Virus genome (UHGV): UHGV-0233562
From: a virus
Direction: 5' to 3' (one strand)
Length of the DNA: 25,081 nucleotides
The notes below the pieces were generated by a model that saw only the letters and a program-made list of their open reading frames with translations, was not told the DNA's origin and searched no databases. A program made the position numbers and the translations under genes. The stretch's first letter is position 1. Each line of letters starts with the position of its first letter. This document shows, piece after piece, positions 850-9,238 of the stretch.

Positions 850-1056
850 ACATTGGCGAGGTAACGGTAGTTAAGTAGAATGGCTGCGGGTGCTTGAGGC
901 TATCTGCCTCGGGCATGAACACCAACGGCAGATAGAGAAAAGCCCCAGTTAACATTACGCGTCCTGCAAGACGCTTAACATTAATCTGAGGCCAATTTCA
1001 TGCTAGACACATGTAGGTTAGCCTCTTACGTGCCGAAAGGCAAGGAGAAGCAGGCT
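850..1056 (+). promoter_or_regulatory. hok mRNA 5' leader region (tac-like element, long stem 899-907/926-934, mok-like upstream start at 1000)
   Basis: GCTTGAGGCTATCTGCC...GGCAGATAGAG and ...CAAGGAGAAGCAGGCTATG resemble the hok-family leader as I recall it from plasmid R1. GGCGAGG at 855-861 is complementary to CCTCGCC at 1237-1243 downstream of hok, as in tac/fbi pairing. Boundaries approximate. Confidence 0.5.
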
Positions 1057-1212
1057 ATGAAGCAGCAAAAGGCGATGTTAATCGCCCTGATCGTCATCTG
1101 TTTAACCGTCATAGTGACGGCACTGGTAACGAGGAAAGACCTCTGCGAGGTACGAATCCGAACCGGGCAGACGGAGGTCGCTGTCTTCACAGCTTACGAA
1201 CCTGAGGAGTAA
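1057..1212 (+). CDS. hokD: Hok/Gef-family type I toxin (51 aa)
   Basis: MKQQKAMLIALIVICLTVIVTALVTRKDLCEVRIRTGQTEVAVFTAYEPEE: single TM helix followed by the conserved Hok periplasmic tail (RKDLCEV..TGQTEVAVF.AYE). Matches my recollection of E. coli HokD/RelF. An in-frame ATG at 1000 would give a 70-aa product. Confidence 0.85.
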   Translation: MKQQKAMLIALIVICLTVIVTALVTRKDLCEVRIRTGQTEVAVFTAYEPEE

Positions 1213-3459: not shown

Positions 3460-4281
3460 ATGAAACTGGAAGATTTACCGAAATACTACTCCCCAAAATC
3501 CCCTGGCCTGACCGATGCATCGGCCTCAACGTCAAAAGATGCGCTGAGTATCACTGATGTGATGGCCGCGCAGGGCATGACACAGAATCGGGCTGAGATG
3601 GGTTTTTCTGCGTTCCTGGGGAAAATGGGCATCAGTATGAATGACAGGGCGCGGGCAACAGAATTACTGGCAGATTATGCACTCAGTCGGTGCGATCGTG
3701 TGGCGGCGTTGAGAAAACTTCCGGCAGAAATAAAACCGGTAGTGATGCGCATTATGGCTTCGTACGCTTTTGAGGATTATGCCCGCAGCGCAGCGAGTAA
3801 AAAGCAGTGCCCTTGTTGCTATGGGGAAAAATTTATTGAAAGCATAGTTTTTACAAACAAGGTCCAGTATCCGGATGGTAAGCCGCCGGTATGGGCAAAG
3901 TGTACGAAAGGTGTGTATCCGTCTTACTGGGAAGAATGGAAAAAAGTCAGGGAGGTGGTAAAAGTTGCCTGTCCGGAGTGTGGCGGAAAGGGTGAGGTTT
4001 CCACCGCCTGTAAGGATTGCCGTGGGCGTGGTGTCGCCATTCATCGTGAAGAGTCGGTAAAACGTGGTATGCCTGTTGTCAGAGACTGCCAGCGTTGTGG
4101 TGGTCGTGGCTATGAAAGACTACCATCAACGGAGGCATTTAATGCTATATGCGAGGTGACAAACCAGATAACACGCGCGTCATGGGAAAAAACAGTTAAG
4201 AAATTCTATGATGCGCTGGTGACCCGGTTTGATATTGAAGAAGCATGGGCTGAGCGGCAGTTAAAAAAGGTAACTAGGTAA
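3460..4281 (+). CDS. Q: Late-gene antitermination protein Q (zinc-binding, phage 21/82-type)
   Basis: 273 aa with CxxC clusters (CPECGGKGE...CKDCRGRG...CQRCGGRG); sits immediately upstream of a promoter/terminator pair and the lysis-head-tail operon, the canonical Q position. Confidence 0.85.
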   Translation: MKLEDLPKYYSPKSPGLTDASASTSKDALSITDVMAAQGMTQNRAEMGFSAFLGKMGISMNDRARATELLADYALSRCDRVAALRKLPAEIKPVVMRIMASYAFEDYARSAASKKQCPCCYGEKFIESIVFTNKVQYPDGKPPVWAKCTKGVYPSYWEEWKKVREVVKVACPECGGKGEVSTACKDCRGRGVAIHREESVKRGMPVVRDCQRCGGRGYERLPSTEAFNAICEVTNQITRASWEKTVKKFYDALVTRFDIEEAWAERQLKKVTR

Positions 4282-4284
4282 CAA

Positions 4285-4330
4285 GGTTGATTTTTCCGGA
4301 ATCTGTGGTAAATTCGTCATAATGATGGGC
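4285..4330 (+). promoter_or_regulatory. Candidate late promoter pR' with Q-utilisation region
   Basis: TTGATT (4287-4292) with TAAATT/CATAAT -10 candidates 16-25 bp downstream, directly after Q and before the tR' hairpin. Exact -10 and qut not resolvable by eye. Confidence 0.45.
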
Positions 4331-4362
4331 TTTTTATGCCTGACGTTAGAAGAGTTTCTACA

Positions 4363-4387
4363 ACCCGCCGCCGAGCGGGTTTTTTAT
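4363..4387 (+). terminator. tR'-like rho-independent terminator
   Basis: ACCCGC-CGCCGA-GCGGGT hairpin followed by TTTTTTATT, about 80 nt after Q, consistent with the short terminated transcript that Q modifies. Confidence 0.6.
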
Positions 4388-4424
4388 TGCGGAATTAATT
4401 ACGGACCGTTATTATTCTGCTCCC

Positions 4425-4500
4425 GGCCCTTTAGCTCAGTGGTGAGAGCGAGCGACTCATAATCGCCAGGTCGCTGGTTCAAATCCAGCAAGGGCCACCA
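4425..4500 (+). tRNA. ileZ: tRNA-Ile2 (anticodon CAU, lysidine-type; ileX/ileY-like)
   Basis: GGCCCTTTAGCTCAGTGGTGAGAGCGAGCGACTCATAATCGCCAGGTCGCTGGTTCAAATCCAGCAAGGGCCACCA: 76 nt, 7-bp acceptor stem, CT-CAT-AA anticodon loop, GGTTCAAATCC T-loop, encoded CCA. Near-identical to E. coli ileX as recalled. Confidence 0.85.
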
Positions 4501-4600
4501 TCACAAACCGCCATTAGCTTATCAGGAAGAGCAGACGACACGATAACAGGGTTGTTGGTGCGGGGGCGGGTCCCCGATGGCGGTCCATTATCGGTATTCA

Positions 4601-4677
4601 GCGTTGTTAGCTCAGCCGGACAGAGCAATTGCCTTCTAAGCAATCGGTCACTGGTTCGAATCCAGTACAGCGCGCCA
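4601..4677 (+). tRNA. tRNA-Arg (anticodon UCU, reads AGA/AGG)
   Basis: GCGTTGTTAGCTCAGCCGGACAGAGCAATTGCCTTCTAAGCAATCGGTCACTGGTTCGAATCCAGTACAGCGCGCCA: 77 nt, acceptor stem with one G-U pair, CT-TCT-AA anticodon loop, GGTTCGAATCC T-loop, encoded CCA. Confidence 0.85.
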
Positions 4678-4787
4678 TATTCATTCTTCCAGATTCCTTC
4701 CGGCAGAGCCTTATACTGGAATATACCTGGCTCAGGATATTGTTGAAAACATAATATGTTTGTCAAAAATAAAAGTTCTGTTAAGTA

Positions 4788-5141
4788 TTGATTGAGTGTT
4801 TGTTATACGGTCTAATGGTTTTTTCAGCATTAAATATTTATCATTCATATGGTGTGGGTAGAGTGAATATTGATGAGGCGTCGGGGTGTTTCATCCTTAG
4901 GCAGCGTATTGATATAGTCAATGCAGCACGAGCAAAGGCCTTCAGCCGTTTGACAGTTTTGTTCTGTGCTCCTGATCGTCTTTCGGGAAGAGACGTTATT
5001 ATTCTGAATAGTGATGCTATACAGAGGGTTTGCGATGAGTTCATGGTTGCTAATTCAGAATTATTTGCTCTTGTTCAGGAGTACAACAGAATAGCCAGGA
5101 CCTGTGGTATGGATGAACTTCGGATTACTCATCTGGGGTAG
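4788..5141 (+). CDS. Hypothetical protein (up to 117 aa; start uncertain, TTG 4788 or ATG 4815)
   Basis: Open frame in the cargo locus after the tRNAs; no convincing SD, no family recognised. Confidence 0.35.
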   Translation: MIECLLYGLMVFSALNIYHSYGVGRVNIDEASGCFILRQRIDIVNAARAKAFSRLTVLFCAPDRLSGRDVIILNSDAIQRVCDEFMVANSELFALVQEYNRIARTCGMDELRITHLG

Positions 5142-5674
5142 ATACATATCTGGATTATCACCTGTTACGGTAAAAAGTGATTGCTTACTGTTTTTGTGAA
5201 TGGCATTGCAGCAGCCGGATAATGTCAGTGCTGGCTGACGGTGTGCTGGTGGCGGGTGTGGTGGTTGTTGCTTTCCCGTTGCTGAAAAAGAAAACGCCAG
5301 ACTGTTAGCCGGGTATCAGTTAGCGGGAGAAATTTTTAAATACTTCACAATTCAGGCGGTTGACTGTTCTCTGGTTTGCGGGGAGTTTGTTAAAAGAAAC
5401 TGGCATGGTGAATCCCCCTGTGCGGAGGGGCAATCAGCGAGTAGGTATATGGGATAATCGCGGATTCAGGTGCTGGTACTGAATTCACCGGGAGGCACCC
5501 GGCACCATGCACTTCAATAGATTCTCTCCACATTATGGATATTCTTTCAGAATATCCCACGCAGACTTTGTGTAAATGTTAACAAATGTGCGTTTTATTT
5601 GATCTGATTCGCTGTTTGAGCGTCCAAAACAACGGTATATATAATCCTTTACTATATGACATATGTGAGGAAAA

Positions 5675-6103
5675 ATGGGTTTTCGTAGCGCATCAATTCT
5701 TACGTTGATTATTAGTGGGATTATTATCGGGTGCACTGATGCTGTATCGACAAATTATCATGACCGTACATCATATTACTCCGATAAAGCAATAGAGACA
5801 CAGTATGTGAGTTCATCTGAACGTACTTCTGATGTTAGTGAGGATATCCGTCTGTATGCCCATCAAATCAAGAGCGCCATCGAAAAACAGTTCGGGGATG
5901 CGAGTAAGTATTCAGGAAAAGAGTGTACACTGAGAATGCATATGGCCCCGAATGGCCTTCTACTGGAGGTTAAAAGAGAAAGTGGAGACCTCGATTTATG
6001 TCGTGAAGCGATGAATGCGATAAAGAATGTTGATATACCTGCCCCCCCTTCGCCGGAAGTATATAAAGTATTTCAAAATGGGGTGCTGGATTTTAAACCC
6101 TGA
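5675..6103 (+). CDS. Lipoprotein with TolA C-terminal (domain III)-like domain, 142 aa
   Basis: SD GAGG then ATG 5675; signal peptide MGFRSASILTLIISGIIIG with lipobox IIGC and Thr at +2. C-terminal half HQIKSAIEKQFGDASKYSGKECTLRMHMAPNGLLLEVKRESGDLDLCREAMNAIKNVDIPAPPSPEVYKVFQNGVLDFKP aligns by eye with the E. coli TolA C-terminus (..GQIKSAIESKFYDASSYAGKTCTLRIKLAPDGMLLDIK..ALCQAA..KIPKPPSQAVYEVFKNAPLDFKP), including both Cys and the terminal LDFKP. Confidence 0.85.
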   Translation: MGFRSASILTLIISGIIIGCTDAVSTNYHDRTSYYSDKAIETQYVSSSERTSDVSEDIRLYAHQIKSAIEKQFGDASKYSGKECTLRMHMAPNGLLLEVKRESGDLDLCREAMNAIKNVDIPAPPSPEVYKVFQNGVLDFKP

Positions 6104-6253
6104 TATTTATTGTTTTGTAATAAACGGTTTCGGCTTAGGTTTGTTCTGACACAACTACGGCACTGAGCTAAATTTAGCGGATAGTCAGCTCTGAGCCAGT
6201 GGCGGACGTAACAACTACTATTGCTGAGATTTTAATGGATTGAGGAGCAAGAA

Positions 6254-6649
6254 GTGGGATTAAAGAAAATCGTTATGTTGACTTTTTGGGTCGGTTTTGT
6301 TGCGGGATGCACACCTTTACACCCTTCAGATTGCCACAAAACTACTGCTACAGGTAGTTGCAGTTCAGGACGCTGGGATGATCAGGATGAATGGGGGGCG
6401 CAAGCGCGGGGAATCAGAGCTGCAATTAATGCCAAACTTGATGAGCCGCATAACTGGAAAGGGAAAAAATGCAGGTTGCATATGGAATTCTCTCAGGATG
6501 GCACGGCGTTAAAAATATCTACCAGTAACGGTGATAAAGCCTATTGCGAAGCGATAAAGTCCGCAGCTCATAAAGCCAAATTTCCGGCCTTCAACAATCC
6601 GGAAGTCTACAGAGATTTTCAGAAATCTGGCTTTGACATGCGAGGTTAG
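6254..6649 (+). CDS. Second, divergent TolA C-terminal-domain-like lipoprotein, 131 aa (paralog of 5675..6103)
   Basis: SD GAGGAG 6242-6247, GTG 6254; signal peptide with lipobox VAGC, Thr at +2. C-terminal region KKCRLHMEFSQDGTALKIS...AYCEAIKSAAHKAKFPAFNNPEVYRDFQKSGFD keeps the two-Cys and PEVY..F pattern of the upstream paralog and of TolA domain III. Confidence 0.8.
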   Translation: MGLKKIVMLTFWVGFVAGCTPLHPSDCHKTTATGSCSSGRWDDQDEWGAQARGIRAAINAKLDEPHNWKGKKCRLHMEFSQDGTALKISTSNGDKAYCEAIKSAAHKAKFPAFNNPEVYRDFQKSGFDMRG

Positions 6650-6774
6650 CTCTTCAATTACTATATCTCATTCATAGCAAACTGACAGATTTGATGATGT
6701 TCTATATACGAAACCTGTGATGTCAAGTCTGAGCTAATACAAATAAACATAATATCAGAGAAATACATTTTATT

Positions 6775-6798
6775 AGCTCGCTACGGCGAGCTTTTTAT
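6775..6798 (+). terminator. Rho-independent terminator closing the TolA-like cargo unit
   Basis: AGCTCGC-TACG-GCGAGCT hairpin followed by TTTTT. Confidence 0.5.
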
Positions 6799-6900
6799 AT
6801 TGCATCGTCTCCAGCATATATATCAATTAAGGCTCTGATTGATGTGTCTGGAAGCCTACACATAATAACTATGCCATCCGTTCCGTGCGGAGGTGAGGCT

Positions 6901-7116
6901 ATGAAATCCATGGACAAAATTTCAACAGGCATTGCCTACGGCACCTCCGCAGGCAGTGCTGGCTACTGGTTTTTACAGCTGCTCGATAAAGTCACGCCCT
7001 CACAGTGGGCAGCAATAGGTGTGCTGGGTAGCCTGGTATTTGGCCTGCTGACGTACCTGACAAATCTTTATTTCAAGATTAAAGAAGACAGGCGTAAGGC
7101 TGCGAGAGGAGAGTAA
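6901..7116 (+). CDS. S: Class II holin (S21-type pinholin) with dual-start motif
   Basis: SD GGAGGTGAGG then ATG 6901; [61 protein letters not shown]: two TM segments, charged C-terminus, Met1-Lys-Ser-Met4 dual start typical of holin/antiholin pairs. Resembles phage 21 S as recalled. Confidence 0.85.
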
Positions 7117-7432: not shown

Positions 7433-8456
<1,024 letters not shown>

Positions 8457-8819
8457 ATTAATATTAAATCGGATTATTTTTAGCGCTGAATGTGAAATTT
8501 AAATAAAAAGGACTCTTCCATGAGTCAAAATCCTTGAAATCTTAAGGGTAAGATAAAAGGTCATTAGACAGAATGACACGTTTTATTAATAAATAAAGCT
8601 ATTGTTTCATTCGTGTGTTTTTCTTTACAAAAGTAATCCTTGCTATGGTTGGTTAATCATGCGTTAATGGTGTTCTGGTTTGTTACAAAATTATCTGAAG
8701 CAGTCATTGTTATAATTTTATTATTTGTACCTCTTGAGATTTCCTTGTTGGTTTTTCTCTCTGATATTTTTTTTCGGACCATTCTGCCCAAGGGCTAACT
8801 TCTTCAAAAGGTAATAATG

Positions 8820-9032
8820 ATGTCTAACAAAATGACTGGTTTAGTGAAATGGTTTAACCCTGAAAAAGGTTTTGGTTTCATCACGCCGAAAGATGGTAGC
8901 AAAGATGTGTTTGTGCATTTCTCAGCTATTCAGAGCAACGATTTCAAAACGTTAACTGAGAATCAGGAAGTCGAATTTGGTATTGAGAACGGACCTAAAG
9001 GCCCTGCAGCTGTTCATGTAGTGGCACTTTGA
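8820..9032 (+). CDS. CspA-family cold-shock protein (CspB/CspI-like)
   Basis: [38 protein letters not shown]...: cold-shock domain with RNP1 (KGFGFI) and RNP2 (VFVHF) motifs; preceded by a long AT-rich leader of about 360 nt. Confidence 0.9.
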
Positions 9033-9238
9033 GGTAGAAAATATTACAAACCATATTCACTTTAGATGCCCGTGTTGCCATGGTTCTCAGTATAGAACAT
9101 CATCTTTTGATGTTTCTGACAGAAATCCTTTCGGGGCAAAATGTATCTTTTGTAAATCAATGATGATTACATTTGATAATATTTCACAATACTTAAATGT
9201 TAGCCATCTGTCGTTAGATTTAAGAAAGTGAAAATGAA

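What the first reader, a model, noticed from the sequence alone, without database searches (positions are those of the whole stretch)
4282..5674. Q - pR'/tR' - tRNA(Ile2, Arg-UCU) - cargo slot arranged as in Stx phages, with tRNAs matching rare codons in the cargo
The order Q, promoter, short terminated leader, tRNA genes, then cargo directly upstream of the lysis cassette is the architecture that places stx under Q control in Shiga-toxin phages. Here the slot holds an unknown 117-aa ORF and the TolA-like lipoproteins, so these are probably Q-dependent, induction-coupled genes. The first TolA-like gene contains 3 ATA and 2 AGA codons in 142 codons, exactly the rare codons read by the two adjacent tRNAs. 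About 530 bp (5142-5674) carry no ORF and are unexplained.
Basis: partly seen in the sequence, partly recalled or inferred. Interest (0 to 1): 0.55.

Follow-up and report, generated by a model that had tools for sequence, protein, structure and literature searches.

The report
Prophage late-operon leader with cargo
This is the ordinary, already sequenced stretch between the late-gene activator Q and the lysis genes of a lambda-like E. coli prophage. It is built from the same modules as Shiga-toxin phages but carries harmless-looking cargo instead of toxin, and its "empty" 530 bases hold a small membrane-protein gene and a known prophage small RNA.

Summary
A lambda-type Q gene (3460-4281) is followed by a lambda-like late promoter pR' and a terminator tR' (4362-4388). 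Next come tRNA-Ile2(CAU) and tRNA-Arg(UCU), then cargo, then holin S (6901).

The region is 100% identical to phage mEp460_ev081 and occurs in about 1180 of 5426 complete E. coli genomes. The tRNA block is homologous to ileZ-argN-argO of Stx2 phages. The 100-nt spacer between the two tRNAs is a decayed argN.

The "unexplained" 530 bp is not empty. It holds a DUF3927/TciB-like 43-aa gene (5177-5308) and an STnc100/PasD-family sRNA (5374-5511). In Stx2 phages that sRNA sits just after stx2B.

The 117-aa ORF is probably a 92-aa gene (4863-5141, phrog_2873).

The two TolA-domain-III lipoproteins form a separate inserted cassette (5512-6909) with its own promoter-like site and terminator. The insertion cut off the sRNA's terminator.

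The codon counts are correct but not cargo-specific. Early and lysis genes are just as rich in ATA/AGA/AGG. The tRNA module carries its own promoter.

"Strictly Q-dependent cargo served by matched tRNAs" is therefore only partly supported. The architecture is already known; only the TolA-like cargo is unstudied.

The parts
3460..4281 (+). Late-gene antiterminator Q of the lambda Q family, with a roughly 68-aa extra CxxCxGxG zinc-finger insert.
   Evidence: PF03589 1.4e-54 and DnaJ_CXXCXGXG 6.7e-07. PDB 7UBM Q-lambda 2.8e-40, matched in two stretches, residues 1-113 and 182-273.
4287..4329 (+). Late promoter pR'. It has -35 TTGATT (4287-4292), a 16-nt spacer and -10 TAAATT (4309-4314). It also has the sigma-70 pause-type -10-like element AATGAT (4321-4326) followed by GGG. 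The inferred transcription start is near 4321.
   Evidence: Column-for-column alignment with lambda pR'. The elements are invariant in relatives whose Q region is only 87-90% identical, and those relatives carry AACGAT exactly as lambda does.
4321..4388 (+). Short pR'-tR' leader RNA of about 67 nt (inferred). It is the counterpart of lambda 6S RNA and of StxS. tR' is the hairpin at 4362-4381 plus a T run.
   Evidence: Terminator scan and fold. The stem is conserved with loop changes in relatives. No Rfam family reaches threshold: isrK 18 bits (E 0.36) and Trp_leader 25.6 bits.
4387..4415 (+). Promoter-like site of the tRNA module: -35 TTGCGG (4387-4392), 17 nt, -10 TATTAT (4410-4415).
   Evidence: Homology with Stx2a and other prophages starts exactly at the -35, whether tR' or a methylase gene lies upstream. 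A primary transcription start upstream of the tRNAs was mapped in the Sakai Stx2a phage (PMC7547250).
4425..4500 (+). tRNA-Ile2 (anticodon CAU, lysidine type; ileZ homologue). It reads ATA.
   Evidence: ARAGORN. Rfam 72.5 bits. PGAP calls it tRNA-Ile. Identical to Stx2a ileZ and 89% identical to K-12 ileX.
4507..4587 (+). Relic of argN (tRNA-Arg UCG). The acceptor, D and T stems are retained. The anticodon arm is replaced by a 7-bp stem with a 3-nt loop, and the T loop is degenerate.
   Evidence: Alignment with the Stx2a ileZ-argN-argO block and fold. Not called by ARAGORN or by Rfam at E<=1. An intact argN is present in L009.
4601..4677 (+). tRNA-Arg (anticodon UCU; argO homologue). It reads AGA and, by wobble, AGG.
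   Evidence: ARAGORN. Rfam 68 bits. PGAP calls it tRNA-Arg.
4863..5141 (+). Gene of unknown function (phrog_2873), most likely 92 aa from a GTG start. The predicted fold is a helical hairpin.
   Evidence: phrog_2873 2.2e-69. Homologues at 55% identity lie beside STnc100 in another context. dN/dS is 0.28 for the 92 codons and 0.69 for the N-terminal 24 aligned codons, and the frame is broken upstream in L014. PGAP annotates the 92-aa form once. AF2 pLDDT 69 with no fold match.
5177..5308 (+). DUF3927 / TciB-like small hydrophobic protein (43 aa).
   Evidence: PF13064 1.7e-27. phrog_1470 7.8e-13. PGAP annotates it as a DUF3927 family protein.
5374..5564 (+). STnc100 (RF02076; PasD-related) prophage sRNA gene. 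Family homology ends at 5511. The family's 3' terminator is replaced by an unrelated hairpin (5533-5557) with no U tract.
   Evidence: Rfam 114 bits against a gathering score of 47. Alignment of six copies. BLAST breakpoints at 5510-5512 in seven loci.
5512..6909 (+). Inserted TolA-like cassette (moron). It contains a promoter-like site at 5616-5645, two lipoprotein genes and a terminator.
   Evidence: Sharp homology breakpoints at 5511/5512 and 6909/6910 against relatives. The three cargo genes together (DUF3927 and the two TolA-like genes) have G+C 45%, against 50-54% for the early and head/tail genes. Present with at least 80% coverage in 774 of 5426 genomes.
5616..5645 (+). Sigma-70 promoter-like site TTGAGC-18-TATAAT, 30 nt upstream of the TolA-like gene 1 start (SD GAGGA).
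   Evidence: Best-scoring site of the scan, 10 of 12 matches. This is a sequence match only.
5675..6103 (+). Lipoprotein 1 with a TolA domain III. The signal peptide ends in lipobox IIGC with +2 Thr. Residues 55-142 are 58% identical to E. coli TolA residues 334-421, up to the C-terminus.
   Evidence: PF06519 8e-23. PDB 1S62, 3QDP and 1TOL TolA at 2e-27. Only the last ~95 positions of the full-length TolA models match.
6254..6649 (+). Lipoprotein 2 with a TolA domain III. Start is GTG after GGAG, lipobox VAGC, +2 Thr. It is 28% identical to lipoprotein 1.
   Evidence: PF06519 1.3e-14. phrog_5772. Pairwise comparison. Copies 87% identical lie on plasmids such as pO157.
6775..6800 (+). Intrinsic terminator-like hairpin AGCTCGC-tacg-GCGAGCT followed by TTTTTATATT. 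It lies between the cargo and holin S.
   Evidence: Terminator scan: 7-bp stem with 5 GC pairs.
6901..7116 (+). Holin S (P21 type), the first gene of the lysis cassette. It is followed by ydfR, the lysozyme gene and Rz.
   Evidence: PF04971 5.5e-36. PGAP annotates it as essD.

Best explanation
The region is the leader and accessory-gene zone of the late operon of a lambdoid (mEp460/Qin-like) E. coli prophage. It is assembled from exchangeable modules that are shared with Stx2 phages.

Inferred from homology to lambda:
- pR' fires constitutively.
- RNA polymerase pauses at the -10-like AATGAT-GGG element, where the lambda-family Q loads.
- Without Q, transcription stops at tR' and yields an RNA of about 67 nt.
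- With Q, polymerase reads through tR' and every terminator downstream, including the one at 6775. It transcribes the tRNAs, the cargo, the lysis genes and the head/tail genes.

Superimposed on this are self-contained units that can also be expressed in the lysogen:
(a) The tRNA module has its own promoter. It supplies tRNA-Ile2 and tRNA-Arg(UCU) for ATA and AGA/AGG. These codons are 5-6 times enriched across all AT-richer prophage genes, not only in the cargo.
(b) A unit of a 92-aa gene, a DUF3927 gene and STnc100 lies exactly where stx2AB lies in Stx2 phages.
(c) A later-inserted cassette has its own promoter-like site and terminator. It encodes two outer-membrane-targeted lipoproteins that display a copy of TolA domain III.

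The most likely role of the two lipoproteins is to act as periplasmic decoys for TolA ligands (TolB, group A colicins, filamentous-phage g3p). This would give tolerance or exclusion. This last step is inference only.
For: Identity and occurrence:
- 100% identical to phage mEp460_ev081 and present in 1178 of 5426 E. coli genomes.

Late transcription unit:
- Q belongs to the lambda Q family.
- pR', the pause element and tR' align with lambda and are conserved among diverged relatives.

tRNAs:
- Both are verified, and the Ile2 assignment rests on ileX and ileZ identity.
- The homology boundary lies exactly at the -35 of the tRNA promoter in five contexts.
- A mapped transcription start exists in the Stx2a phage (PMC7547250).

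Module mapping:
- Stx2a phage order: ileZ-argN-argO, stx2AB, STnc100, iraM, nanS-p, S.
- Window order: ileZ, argN relic, argO, ORF92, DUF3927, STnc100, TolA x2, S.

Cassette:
- Sharp junctions at 5511/5512 and 6909/6910, plus a promoter-like site and a terminator.
- The three cargo genes together have lower G+C.
- TolA domain III is 58% identical to the host domain, and both genes have lipoboxes.

Codons:
- Statistics across gene classes.
Against: - No expression data for this element. All promoters other than pR' are consensus matches. The scan found 11 promoter-like sites against 5.8 expected, so single sites are weak evidence.
- The exact position of the published tRNA transcription start was not compared with 4387-4415.
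- The STnc100 copy has lost its terminator and may be non-functional.
- argN is decayed, which argues that selection on the tRNA set is relaxed in at least part of the lineage.
- The decoy role of the TolA-like proteins has no direct support. Four full-text searches on TolA and prophage terms (one hit checked) found no study of prophage-encoded TolA-domain proteins, there was no PADLOC hit, and only one of 50,697 phage records carries such a gene.
Confidence: 0.8

Rival explanations
1. The tRNAs and all cargo are silent in the lysogen and are made only by Q-antiterminated pR' transcription. The two tRNAs are there specifically to decode the cargo's rare codons, as proposed for stx.
For: - Everything lies downstream of pR'/tR' and upstream of S on one strand.
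- The three cargo genes contain 6 ATA, 4 AGA and 1 AGG in 309 codons. That is 35.6 per 1000 against 5.7 per 1000 in the host sample (p = 2e-6).
Against: - Rare-codon density is the same in early genes (28.0), lysis genes (34.9) and csp/gns genes (30.0). Q itself has 10 such codons and must be translated before Q can act.
- The tRNA module carries a conserved promoter of its own, and a transcription start is mapped there in the Sakai Stx2a phage.
- The TolA cassette has a near-consensus promoter and its own terminator.
- argN has decayed, and in phage 640R1 argO is truncated. The tRNA set is therefore not tightly coupled to a given cargo. The same tRNA block also precedes quite different cargo: stx2, nanS-p, or TolA directly in L014.
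Confidence: 0.15
2. The TolA-domain lipoproteins are late lysis accessories rather than lysogen-expressed decoys. On this view they are made with the holin and endolysin, titrate TolB/Pal contacts, and loosen the outer membrane to speed lysis or vesicle release.
For: - They sit directly upstream of S in the late operon.
- Both are predicted outer-membrane lipoproteins with an intact TolA domain III.
- Periplasmic TolA domain III is known to cause a tol (leaky) phenotype. This is from my recollection of Levengood-Freyermuth et al. 1993 and was not checked here.
Against: - A strong terminator separates them from S, and a promoter-like site precedes them. That suggests an independent unit.
- The cassette is absent from most relatives that have the same lysis genes, so lysis does not need it.
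- A close homologue of gene 2 sits on non-phage plasmids such as pO157.
Confidence: 0.2
3. The stretch is decaying filler of a cryptic prophage. On this view the sRNA, the 92-aa ORF, DUF3927 and the tRNA relic are remnants with no present function.
For: - The argN relic.
- STnc100 lacks its terminator.
- PGAP annotates nothing across 4690-5176 in 29 of the 30 genomes listed.
- The neighbouring genes carry Qin cryptic-prophage names: hokD, rem, ydfU, cspI.
Against: - The stretch is identical to a stretch of the record Escherichia phage mEp460_ev081.
- The window carries a complete lysis, terminase, portal, capsid and tail set.
- The 92-aa gene shows purifying selection, dN/dS 0.28 at dS about 1.1.
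- The region is at least 95% conserved in about 1180 genomes.
Confidence: 0.1

Closest known systems
Stx2-converting lambdoid phages (933W / Sakai Sp5 type; here Stx2a phage Stx2_EH2201, LC567829)
   Same: - Same order on one strand: Q, late promoter/terminator, ileZ-argN-argO tRNA block, cargo slot, STnc100 sRNA, further cargo, holin-endolysin.
- The tRNA block is 88.5% identical, and ileZ is identical.
   Different: - No stx genes. The slot holds a 92-aa phrog_2873 gene and DUF3927.
- Q is of the lambda family (273 aa), not the short 126-aa Q annotated in LC567829, and the pR'-tR' region finds no match in Stx2 phages.
- argN is a relic.
- A TolA-domain cassette replaces iraM/nanS-p.
Phage lambda Q / pR' / 6S RNA / tR' late antitermination unit
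   Same: - Q is homologous to Q-lambda (7UBM, 2.8e-40).
- The -10 TAAATT is identical.
- The pause-type -10-like element plus GGG sits at the same distance.
- An intrinsic terminator follows downstream.
   Different: - The leader is about 67 nt instead of lambda's 194-nt 6S RNA (the lambda figure is from my own knowledge).
- The spacer that holds the Q-binding element in lambda has a different sequence.
- Q has an extra zinc-finger insert.
- Lambda has no tRNAs or cargo cassettes before S.
StxS (sRNA from the terminated pR' transcript of Stx phages; PMC7547250)
   Same: A short RNA made constitutively from pR' and ended at tR', as a by-product of control by antitermination.
   Different: - StxS comes from a 258-nt leader processed to 74 nt.
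- Megablast matches to Stx2 phages begin only after tR', so no similarity in the leader was found at that sensitivity.
- No evidence of Hfq binding or of targets for this leader.
STnc100 (Rfam RF02076) / PasD family of prophage sRNAs
   Same: - The score is well above the gathering score, and both conserved internal hairpins are present.
- Same neighbourhood: after Q and tRNAs, before the lysis genes, and beside cargo.
   Different: - This copy lacks the family's Rho-independent terminator, because the TolA cassette is joined at 5511/5512.
- The function of the family is itself unknown.
Lambdoid 'morons' such as lambda bor and lom (independent promoter-gene-terminator units inside late operons)
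   Same: A promoter-like site, envelope lipoprotein genes and a terminator are inserted between late genes. The insert has sharp junctions, lower G+C, and is present in some relatives and absent in others.
   Different: The payload is a copy of a host periplasmic domain (TolA III) fused to lipoprotein signal peptides. Expression in lysogens was not tested.
E. coli TolA (Tol-Pal system)
   Same: Residues 55-142 of lipoprotein 1 are 58% identical to TolA domain III, including both cysteines and the C-terminal LDFKP.
   Different: - No N-terminal membrane anchor and no long helical domain II. A lipoprotein signal peptide takes their place.
- The score reaches only 105 bits against the 213-bit cut-off of the full-length model. 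PGAP's name 'tolA' is an over-annotation.

Membership tests
Lambda-type Q-dependent late transcription unit | Q protein of the lambda Q family encoded immediately upstream | tested here: met
   PF03589 1.4e-54 and PDB 7UBM 2.8e-40.
Lambda-type Q-dependent late transcription unit | Sigma-70 promoter followed by a -10-like pause-inducing element in the initially transcribed region | tested here: met
   TTGATT-16-TAAATT, then 6 nt, then AATGAT-GGG. This aligns with lambda TAAATT-6-AACGAT-GGG, and relatives carry AACGAT itself.
Lambda-type Q-dependent late transcription unit | Q-binding element between -35 and -10 that is recognised by the cognate Q | not testable with these tools
   The spacer sequence differs from lambda but is conserved among relatives with the same Q type. 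Binding needs a footprint or gel-shift assay.
Lambda-type Q-dependent late transcription unit | Intrinsic terminator tR' shortly downstream that Q-modified polymerase reads through | tested here: inconclusive
   The hairpin at 4362-4381 plus T run is present and conserved. Read-through was not testable.
tRNA-Ile2 (lysidine-dependent, ileX/ileZ type) | CAU anticodon with an Ile2-type body rather than a Met-type body, including the C4-G69 and C5-G68 pairs. I recall these pairs as the TilS determinants; this was not checked here. | tested here: met
   89% identical to K-12 ileX and identical to Stx2a ileZ. PGAP calls it tRNA-Ile in six genomes. ARAGORN labels it Met from the anticodon alone.
tRNA-Ile2 (lysidine-dependent, ileX/ileZ type) | C34 modified to lysidine, and charging with isoleucine | not testable with these tools
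   Needs mass spectrometry or an aminoacylation assay.
Stx-converting phage | stxA and stxB genes between the tRNA block and the lysis genes | tested here: not met
   All ORFs from 4678 to 6900 were identified, and none is stx. Megablast to Stx2 phages covers only the tRNA block, and blastn also finds the sRNA and lysis genes.
Stx-converting phage | ileZ-argN-argO block downstream of Q, and STnc100 after the toxin slot | tested here: met
   In this window argN is only a relic.
STnc100 sRNA (RF02076) | Covariance-model score above the gathering threshold | tested here: met
   114 bits against 47.
STnc100 sRNA (RF02076) | Intact 3' Rho-independent terminator (GC stem plus U tract) | tested here: not met
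   The other copies end in CAGCCCCTCTCCGGAGGGGCT-TTT. This window diverges from 5512 and has GGATATTC/GAATATCC with no U tract.
STnc100 sRNA (RF02076) | Expressed as a discrete small RNA | not testable with these tools
   Needs a northern blot or RNA-seq on a strain with this prophage.
Moron (autonomous cargo cassette in a late operon) | Presence/absence polymorphism with sharp junctions among otherwise homologous phages | tested here: met
   Breakpoints at 5511/5512 and 6909/6910. Present in 774 of 5426 genomes, against 1178 for the flanking region.
Moron (autonomous cargo cassette in a late operon) | Own promoter and own terminator | tested here: inconclusive
   Sequence matches only: TTGAGC-18-TATAAT at 5616-5645 and a hairpin plus T run at 6775-6800.
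TolA (Tol-Pal protein), as named by PGAP | Three-domain protein: N-terminal membrane anchor, long helical domain II, C-terminal domain III | tested here: not met
   Only model positions 293-386 of 387 match, and the score of 105 bits is below the 213-bit cut-off. The N-terminus is a lipoprotein signal peptide.
Bacterial lipoprotein | Signal peptide ending in a lipobox [LVI][ASTVI][GAS]C | tested here: met
   LIISGIIIGC-T and FWVGFVAGC-T, read directly from the translations. Lipidation itself was not testable.

The most novel reading that the evidence does not exclude
The two prophage lipoproteins are outer-membrane-tethered mimics of TolA domain III. They would act as periplasmic decoys for TolA ligands and protect the lysogen from group A colicins and from Tol-dependent filamentous phages. 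Plasmids carrying the homologue would protect their hosts in the same way. In addition, the repeated STnc100 elements that flank every cargo gene in this slot (stx2AB, TolA, DUF3927; up to five copies in one prophage) may serve as both the shared terminator and the recombination joint through which cargo, including stx, is swapped between lambdoid prophages.
Probability: 0.3. Interest if true: 0.6.

Novelty: already known. Interest (0 to 1): 0.25.

Why it matters
There is little here that is new. The arrangement is the textbook late-operon leader of Stx-like lambdoid phages. The exact sequence is already deposited as part of phage mEp460_ev081 and in more than a thousand E. coli genomes.

The value of the check is corrective:
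- It fills the "empty" 530 bp with a DUF3927 gene and an STnc100/PasD-family sRNA.
- It trims a mis-called ORF.
- It shows that the tRNA/rare-codon match is prophage-wide rather than cargo-specific.
- It shows that the cargo looks autonomously expressible.

Two side observations could matter if followed up:
- A widespread family of TolA-domain-III lipoproteins that I found no study of. It occurs in 14% of complete E. coli genomes and also on pO157-type plasmids.
- STnc100 copies mark the joints of the cargo cassettes in the slot that carries stx in pathogens.

Tried and rejected
1. Function of the 117/92-aa protein.
- No Pfam, NCBIfam or PADLOC hit.
- The AF2 model is a helical hairpin (pLDDT 69). 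Foldseek against the PDB gave nothing below E = 0.3. Function remains unknown.

2. Known-family assignment for the pR'-tR' leader.
- Only sub-threshold Rfam hits: Trp_leader 25.6 of 41 bits and isrK 18.1 of 50 bits. Both are driven by the terminator, so both were rejected.

3. Whether the ~67-nt leader equals HnrS (66 nt).
- The paper text gives neither the sequence nor the exact position. Left untested.

4. Promoter for STnc100.
- No convincing -10/-35 is conserved upstream in six copies. It may be processed from the upstream gene's transcript.

5. Literature on prophage TolA-like proteins.
- Four searches found nothing relevant.

6. The ileZ/argN/argO literature search found no paper in the library. 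The attribution of the rare-codon idea to the 933W genome paper rests on my own recollection.

7. Variation among near-identical copies of ORF117 (7 variable sites) had no power to test coding. The distant homologue in L012/L014 was needed.

8. Counts of promoter-like and terminator-like sites are not by themselves above chance: 11 against 5.8±2.6, and 4 against 2.0±1.4. Only the sites backed by homology or by strong hairpins were used.
Full report
**What the window is**

The window is an E. coli lambdoid prophage. The finding's stretch 4282-5674 is 100% identical to Escherichia phage mEp460_ev081. It is found with at least 80% coverage in 1178 of 5426 complete E. coli genomes. A RefSeq chromosome (NZ_CP033850) differs from the whole 25-kb window at only 100 positions. 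Its annotation gives this order:
- hokD, rem, ydfU, rusA, Q
- two tRNAs
- a DUF3927 gene
- two TolA-like genes
- holin, ydfR, lysozyme, Rz
- cspI and gnsB
- a complete terminase-portal-capsid-tail set

**Check of the observation: Q, pR' and tR'**

- The ORF at 3460-4281 is a Q antiterminator of the lambda family. It hits PF03589 at 1.4e-54 and the Q-lambda structure 7UBM at 2.8e-40. It has an extra zinc-finger insert of about 68 aa.
- Just after its stop codon lie TTGATT (4287-4292), a 16-nt spacer and TAAATT (4309-4314). Six bases later comes AATGAT followed by GGG.
- Aligned with lambda, this is the pR' layout: TAAATT, six bases, AACGAT, GGG. From established knowledge, the -10-like element there causes the sigma-70-dependent pause at which Q loads.
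- Relatives whose Q region is only 87-90% identical keep every one of these elements, and they carry AACGAT itself.
- The hairpin at 4362-4381 plus a T run is the best terminator in the region. Its stem is conserved.
- The terminated RNA would be about 67 nt (4321-4388). No Rfam family claims it.

**Check of the observation: the tRNAs**

- ARAGORN and Rfam confirm tRNA(CAT) at 4425-4500 and tRNA-Arg(TCT) at 4601-4677.
- The CAT tRNA is identical to the Stx2a-phage ileZ. It is 89% identical to K-12 ileX, with C4-G69 and C5-G68 retained. PGAP labels it tRNA-Ile. The Ile2 reading is therefore right.
It aligns with the tRNA-Arg(UCG) of Stx2 phages at the acceptor, D and T stems. Its anticodon arm is replaced by a 7-bp stem with a 3-nt loop. 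No predictor calls it.
- An intact three-tRNA block exists in a close relative (L009). In phage 640R1 the third tRNA is truncated as well.

**Check of the observation: the "unknown 117-aa ORF"**

- The ORF belongs to phrog_2873 (2.2e-69).
- Full-length relatives at 55% identity exist. In those relatives it lies after a YdeO/GadX-like AraC regulator and again before an STnc100 copy. So it is a real gene.
- However, the N-terminal 24 aligned codons evolve almost neutrally (dN/dS 0.69). They are out of frame in a second relative, L014.
- The C-terminal 92 codons show dN/dS 0.28 at dS about 1.1.
- PGAP, in the one listed genome where it annotates the gene, also starts at the GTG at 4863.
- The likely gene is therefore 4863-5141.
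- Its AF2 model is a helical hairpin with no informative fold match.

**Check of the observation: the "530 bp with no ORF"**

This part of the finding is wrong.
- 5177-5308 encodes a 43-aa DUF3927/TciB-like hydrophobic protein (PF13064 1.7e-27; phrog_1470).
- 5374-5564 matches the prophage sRNA family STnc100 at 114 bits against a gathering score of 47.
- STnc100 has recently been linked to the PasD sRNAs of EPEC. It is described as common next to Q, tRNAs and lysis genes in Stx-type prophages. Its function is unknown.
- STnc100 has been noted 75 nt downstream of stx2B. I confirmed this in Stx2a phage Stx2_EH2201: stx2B ends at 7623 and STnc100 spans 7698-7909.
- The rest of the 530 bp holds the best sigma-70-like site of the region (TTGAGC-18-TATAAT, 5616-5645). 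It lies 30 nt before the GAGGA-ATG start of the first TolA-like gene.

**Mosaic structure**

BLAST of the window against seven relatives gives sharp breakpoints.
- Homology to Stx2a and other prophages begins at 4385-4387, immediately after tR'. In several relatives a methylase gene is inserted there instead.
- Homology runs through the tRNAs, the 92-aa gene, DUF3927 and STnc100, and stops at 5510-5512. It resumes at 6910, in the holin gene.
- The stop at 5511 lies inside STnc100. All other copies continue into a GC-rich terminator (CAGCCCCTCTCCGGAGGGGCT-TTT). The window continues into unrelated sequence with an AT-rich hairpin and no U tract.
- So 5512-6909 is an inserted cassette that removed the sRNA's terminator.
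- The cassette carries two genes and a strong terminator-like hairpin (6775-6792 plus TTTTTATATT) before S. The three cargo genes together have lower G+C (45%).
- It is present in 774 of 5426 genomes.

By position:
- The 92-aa gene plus DUF3927 occupy the stx2AB slot.
- The TolA cassette occupies the place of iraM/nanS-p.
- In another prophage (L014) a TolA-like gene sits directly after the tRNAs and is followed by an intact STnc100. That prophage has five STnc100 copies, four of them in tandem.

**The cargo proteins**

- Both have lipoprotein signal peptides (…IIGC-T and …VAGC-T). By the +2 rule they would go to the outer membrane; this is inferred from established knowledge.
- Both have a TolA C-terminal domain (PF06519).
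- Residues 55-142 of the first are 58% identical to E. coli TolA domain III, right to the C-terminus.
- The two proteins are only 28% identical to each other.
- They are not TolA orthologues. Only the last ~95 positions of the full-length model match, and the score is below its cut-off.
- Gene 2 has 87% identical copies on plasmids such as pO157.
- Among 50,697 phage records, only mEp460_ev081 has such a protein.
- No literature on them was found, and there was no PADLOC hit.

**Codon claim**

- The counts are exact: 3 ATA and 2 AGA in 142 codons.
- A 49-gene, 14,354-codon sample of the same chromosome has 5.7 ATA+AGA+AGG per 1000 codons. The cargo has 35.6 (p = 2e-6).
- The early genes have 28.0, the lysis genes 34.9 and the csp/gns genes 30.0. 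Only the head/tail genes are low, at 12.1.
- Q itself has 10 such codons.
- The enrichment is therefore a property of the AT-richer accessory part of the prophage, not of the cargo.

**Q dependence**

- All of this lies downstream of pR' and tR'. On induction, Q-modified polymerase is expected to read through to the lysis and structural genes. This is inferred from the lambda paradigm.
- Two units also look autonomous. The first is the tRNA module. It begins exactly at a -35/-10 pair (TTGCRG-17-TATTAT). That pair is conserved in five contexts whatever precedes it.
- Sy et al. mapped a primary transcription start between tR' and the tRNAs in the Sakai Stx2a phage (PMC7547250).
- The second is the TolA cassette, which has its own promoter-like site and terminator.
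- The most likely picture is basal expression in the lysogen plus a Q-driven boost. None of this was measured here.

**Comparison with what is known, and novelty**

- The unit works like the lambda Q/pR'/tR' system and is a member of it by the sequence features I could test.
- It is built like an Stx2 phage late leader and shares modules with it, but it fails the defining stx test.
- Its sRNA belongs to STnc100 by score but lacks the family's terminator.
- The TolA cassette fits the moron concept.
- Everything in the finding's own coordinates is already in databases and in described families, so I rate it as already known and of low interest.
- The unexplored items are the TolA-domain lipoproteins and the apparent role of STnc100 copies as joints between cargo cassettes.
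- My best guess for the lipoproteins is periplasmic decoys for TolA ligands. The rival is a role as lysis helpers.

Noticed in passing
window 4507-4587: Relic of a third tRNA (argN, Arg-UCG) between the two live tRNA genes. It keeps a cloverleaf-like fold but has a 3-nt 'anticodon' loop. The same relic occurs in ST131-type prophages and in phage 640R1, while L009 keeps an intact argN.
   Followed up: yes
L014 3469-3681 and 5441-6361 (E. coli 2014C-3338 prophage): Five STnc100 copies lie in one prophage, four of them in tandem at a period of about 265 nt. Cargo genes alternate with STnc100 copies in all relatives examined, and homology breakpoints fall at or inside the element.
   Followed up: partly
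window 6254-6649; L013 3995-4426 (plasmid p86-24-1, the pO157-type plasmid of O157:H7 strain 86-24): The second TolA-domain lipoprotein gene has copies about 87% identical on plasmids; the cassette search found 526 plasmid places in the E. coli collection. In p86-24-1 the copy lies next to a nikB relaxase remnant. Only one of 50,697 phage records carries a TolA-like protein.
   Followed up: partly
window 5675-6103: RefSeq/PGAP names this 142-aa lipoprotein 'tolA, cell envelope integrity protein TolA'. Only domain III is present, so this is an over-annotation triggered by TIGR02794 (73.9 bits against a cut-off of 59.45).
   Followed up: yes
window 5393-5533, minus strand: PGAP places a partial pseudogene 'hypothetical protein' on the strand opposite the STnc100 sRNA. 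It is most likely spurious.
   Followed up: partly
window 888-1062 and 1057-1212: A hok/sok type I toxin-antitoxin locus lies in the early-right region. The sok RNA scores 115 bits, and the toxin gene is hokD.
   Followed up: no
window 8662-9078: A cspA-type thermoregulator 5' UTR (Rfam 110 bits) precedes and overlaps cspI. It is followed by ymcF, ynfN and gnsB. This is a second cargo cluster, between the lysis genes and the terminase gene, and it has very low G+C (38%).
   Followed up: no
window 8110-8406: An ORF embedded in another frame of Rz (7959-8456) contains a lipobox-like LTSC. It is probably the Rz1 o-spanin, which PGAP does not annotate here.
   Followed up: no
L012 164-889 and L014 4058-4783: In EHEC-type relatives, the homologue of the 92-aa gene lies directly downstream of a YdeO/GadX-like AraC regulator. 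I suspect this is the Psr/PatE class of prophage regulators, from memory. This hints that the small protein belongs to a regulatory module.
   Followed up: partly
window 4321-4388: The predicted pR'-tR' RNA (about 67 nt) is in the same size class as the prophage sRNA HnrS (66 nt, PMC13502914) and as StxS. Sequence identity with HnrS could not be checked.
   Followed up: partly
L002 (mEp460_ev081 record): The deposited phage annotation calls the holin a 'phage tail fiber protein' and calls the DUF968/YdfU protein 'antitermination protein Q'. It also omits both tRNAs.
   Followed up: no
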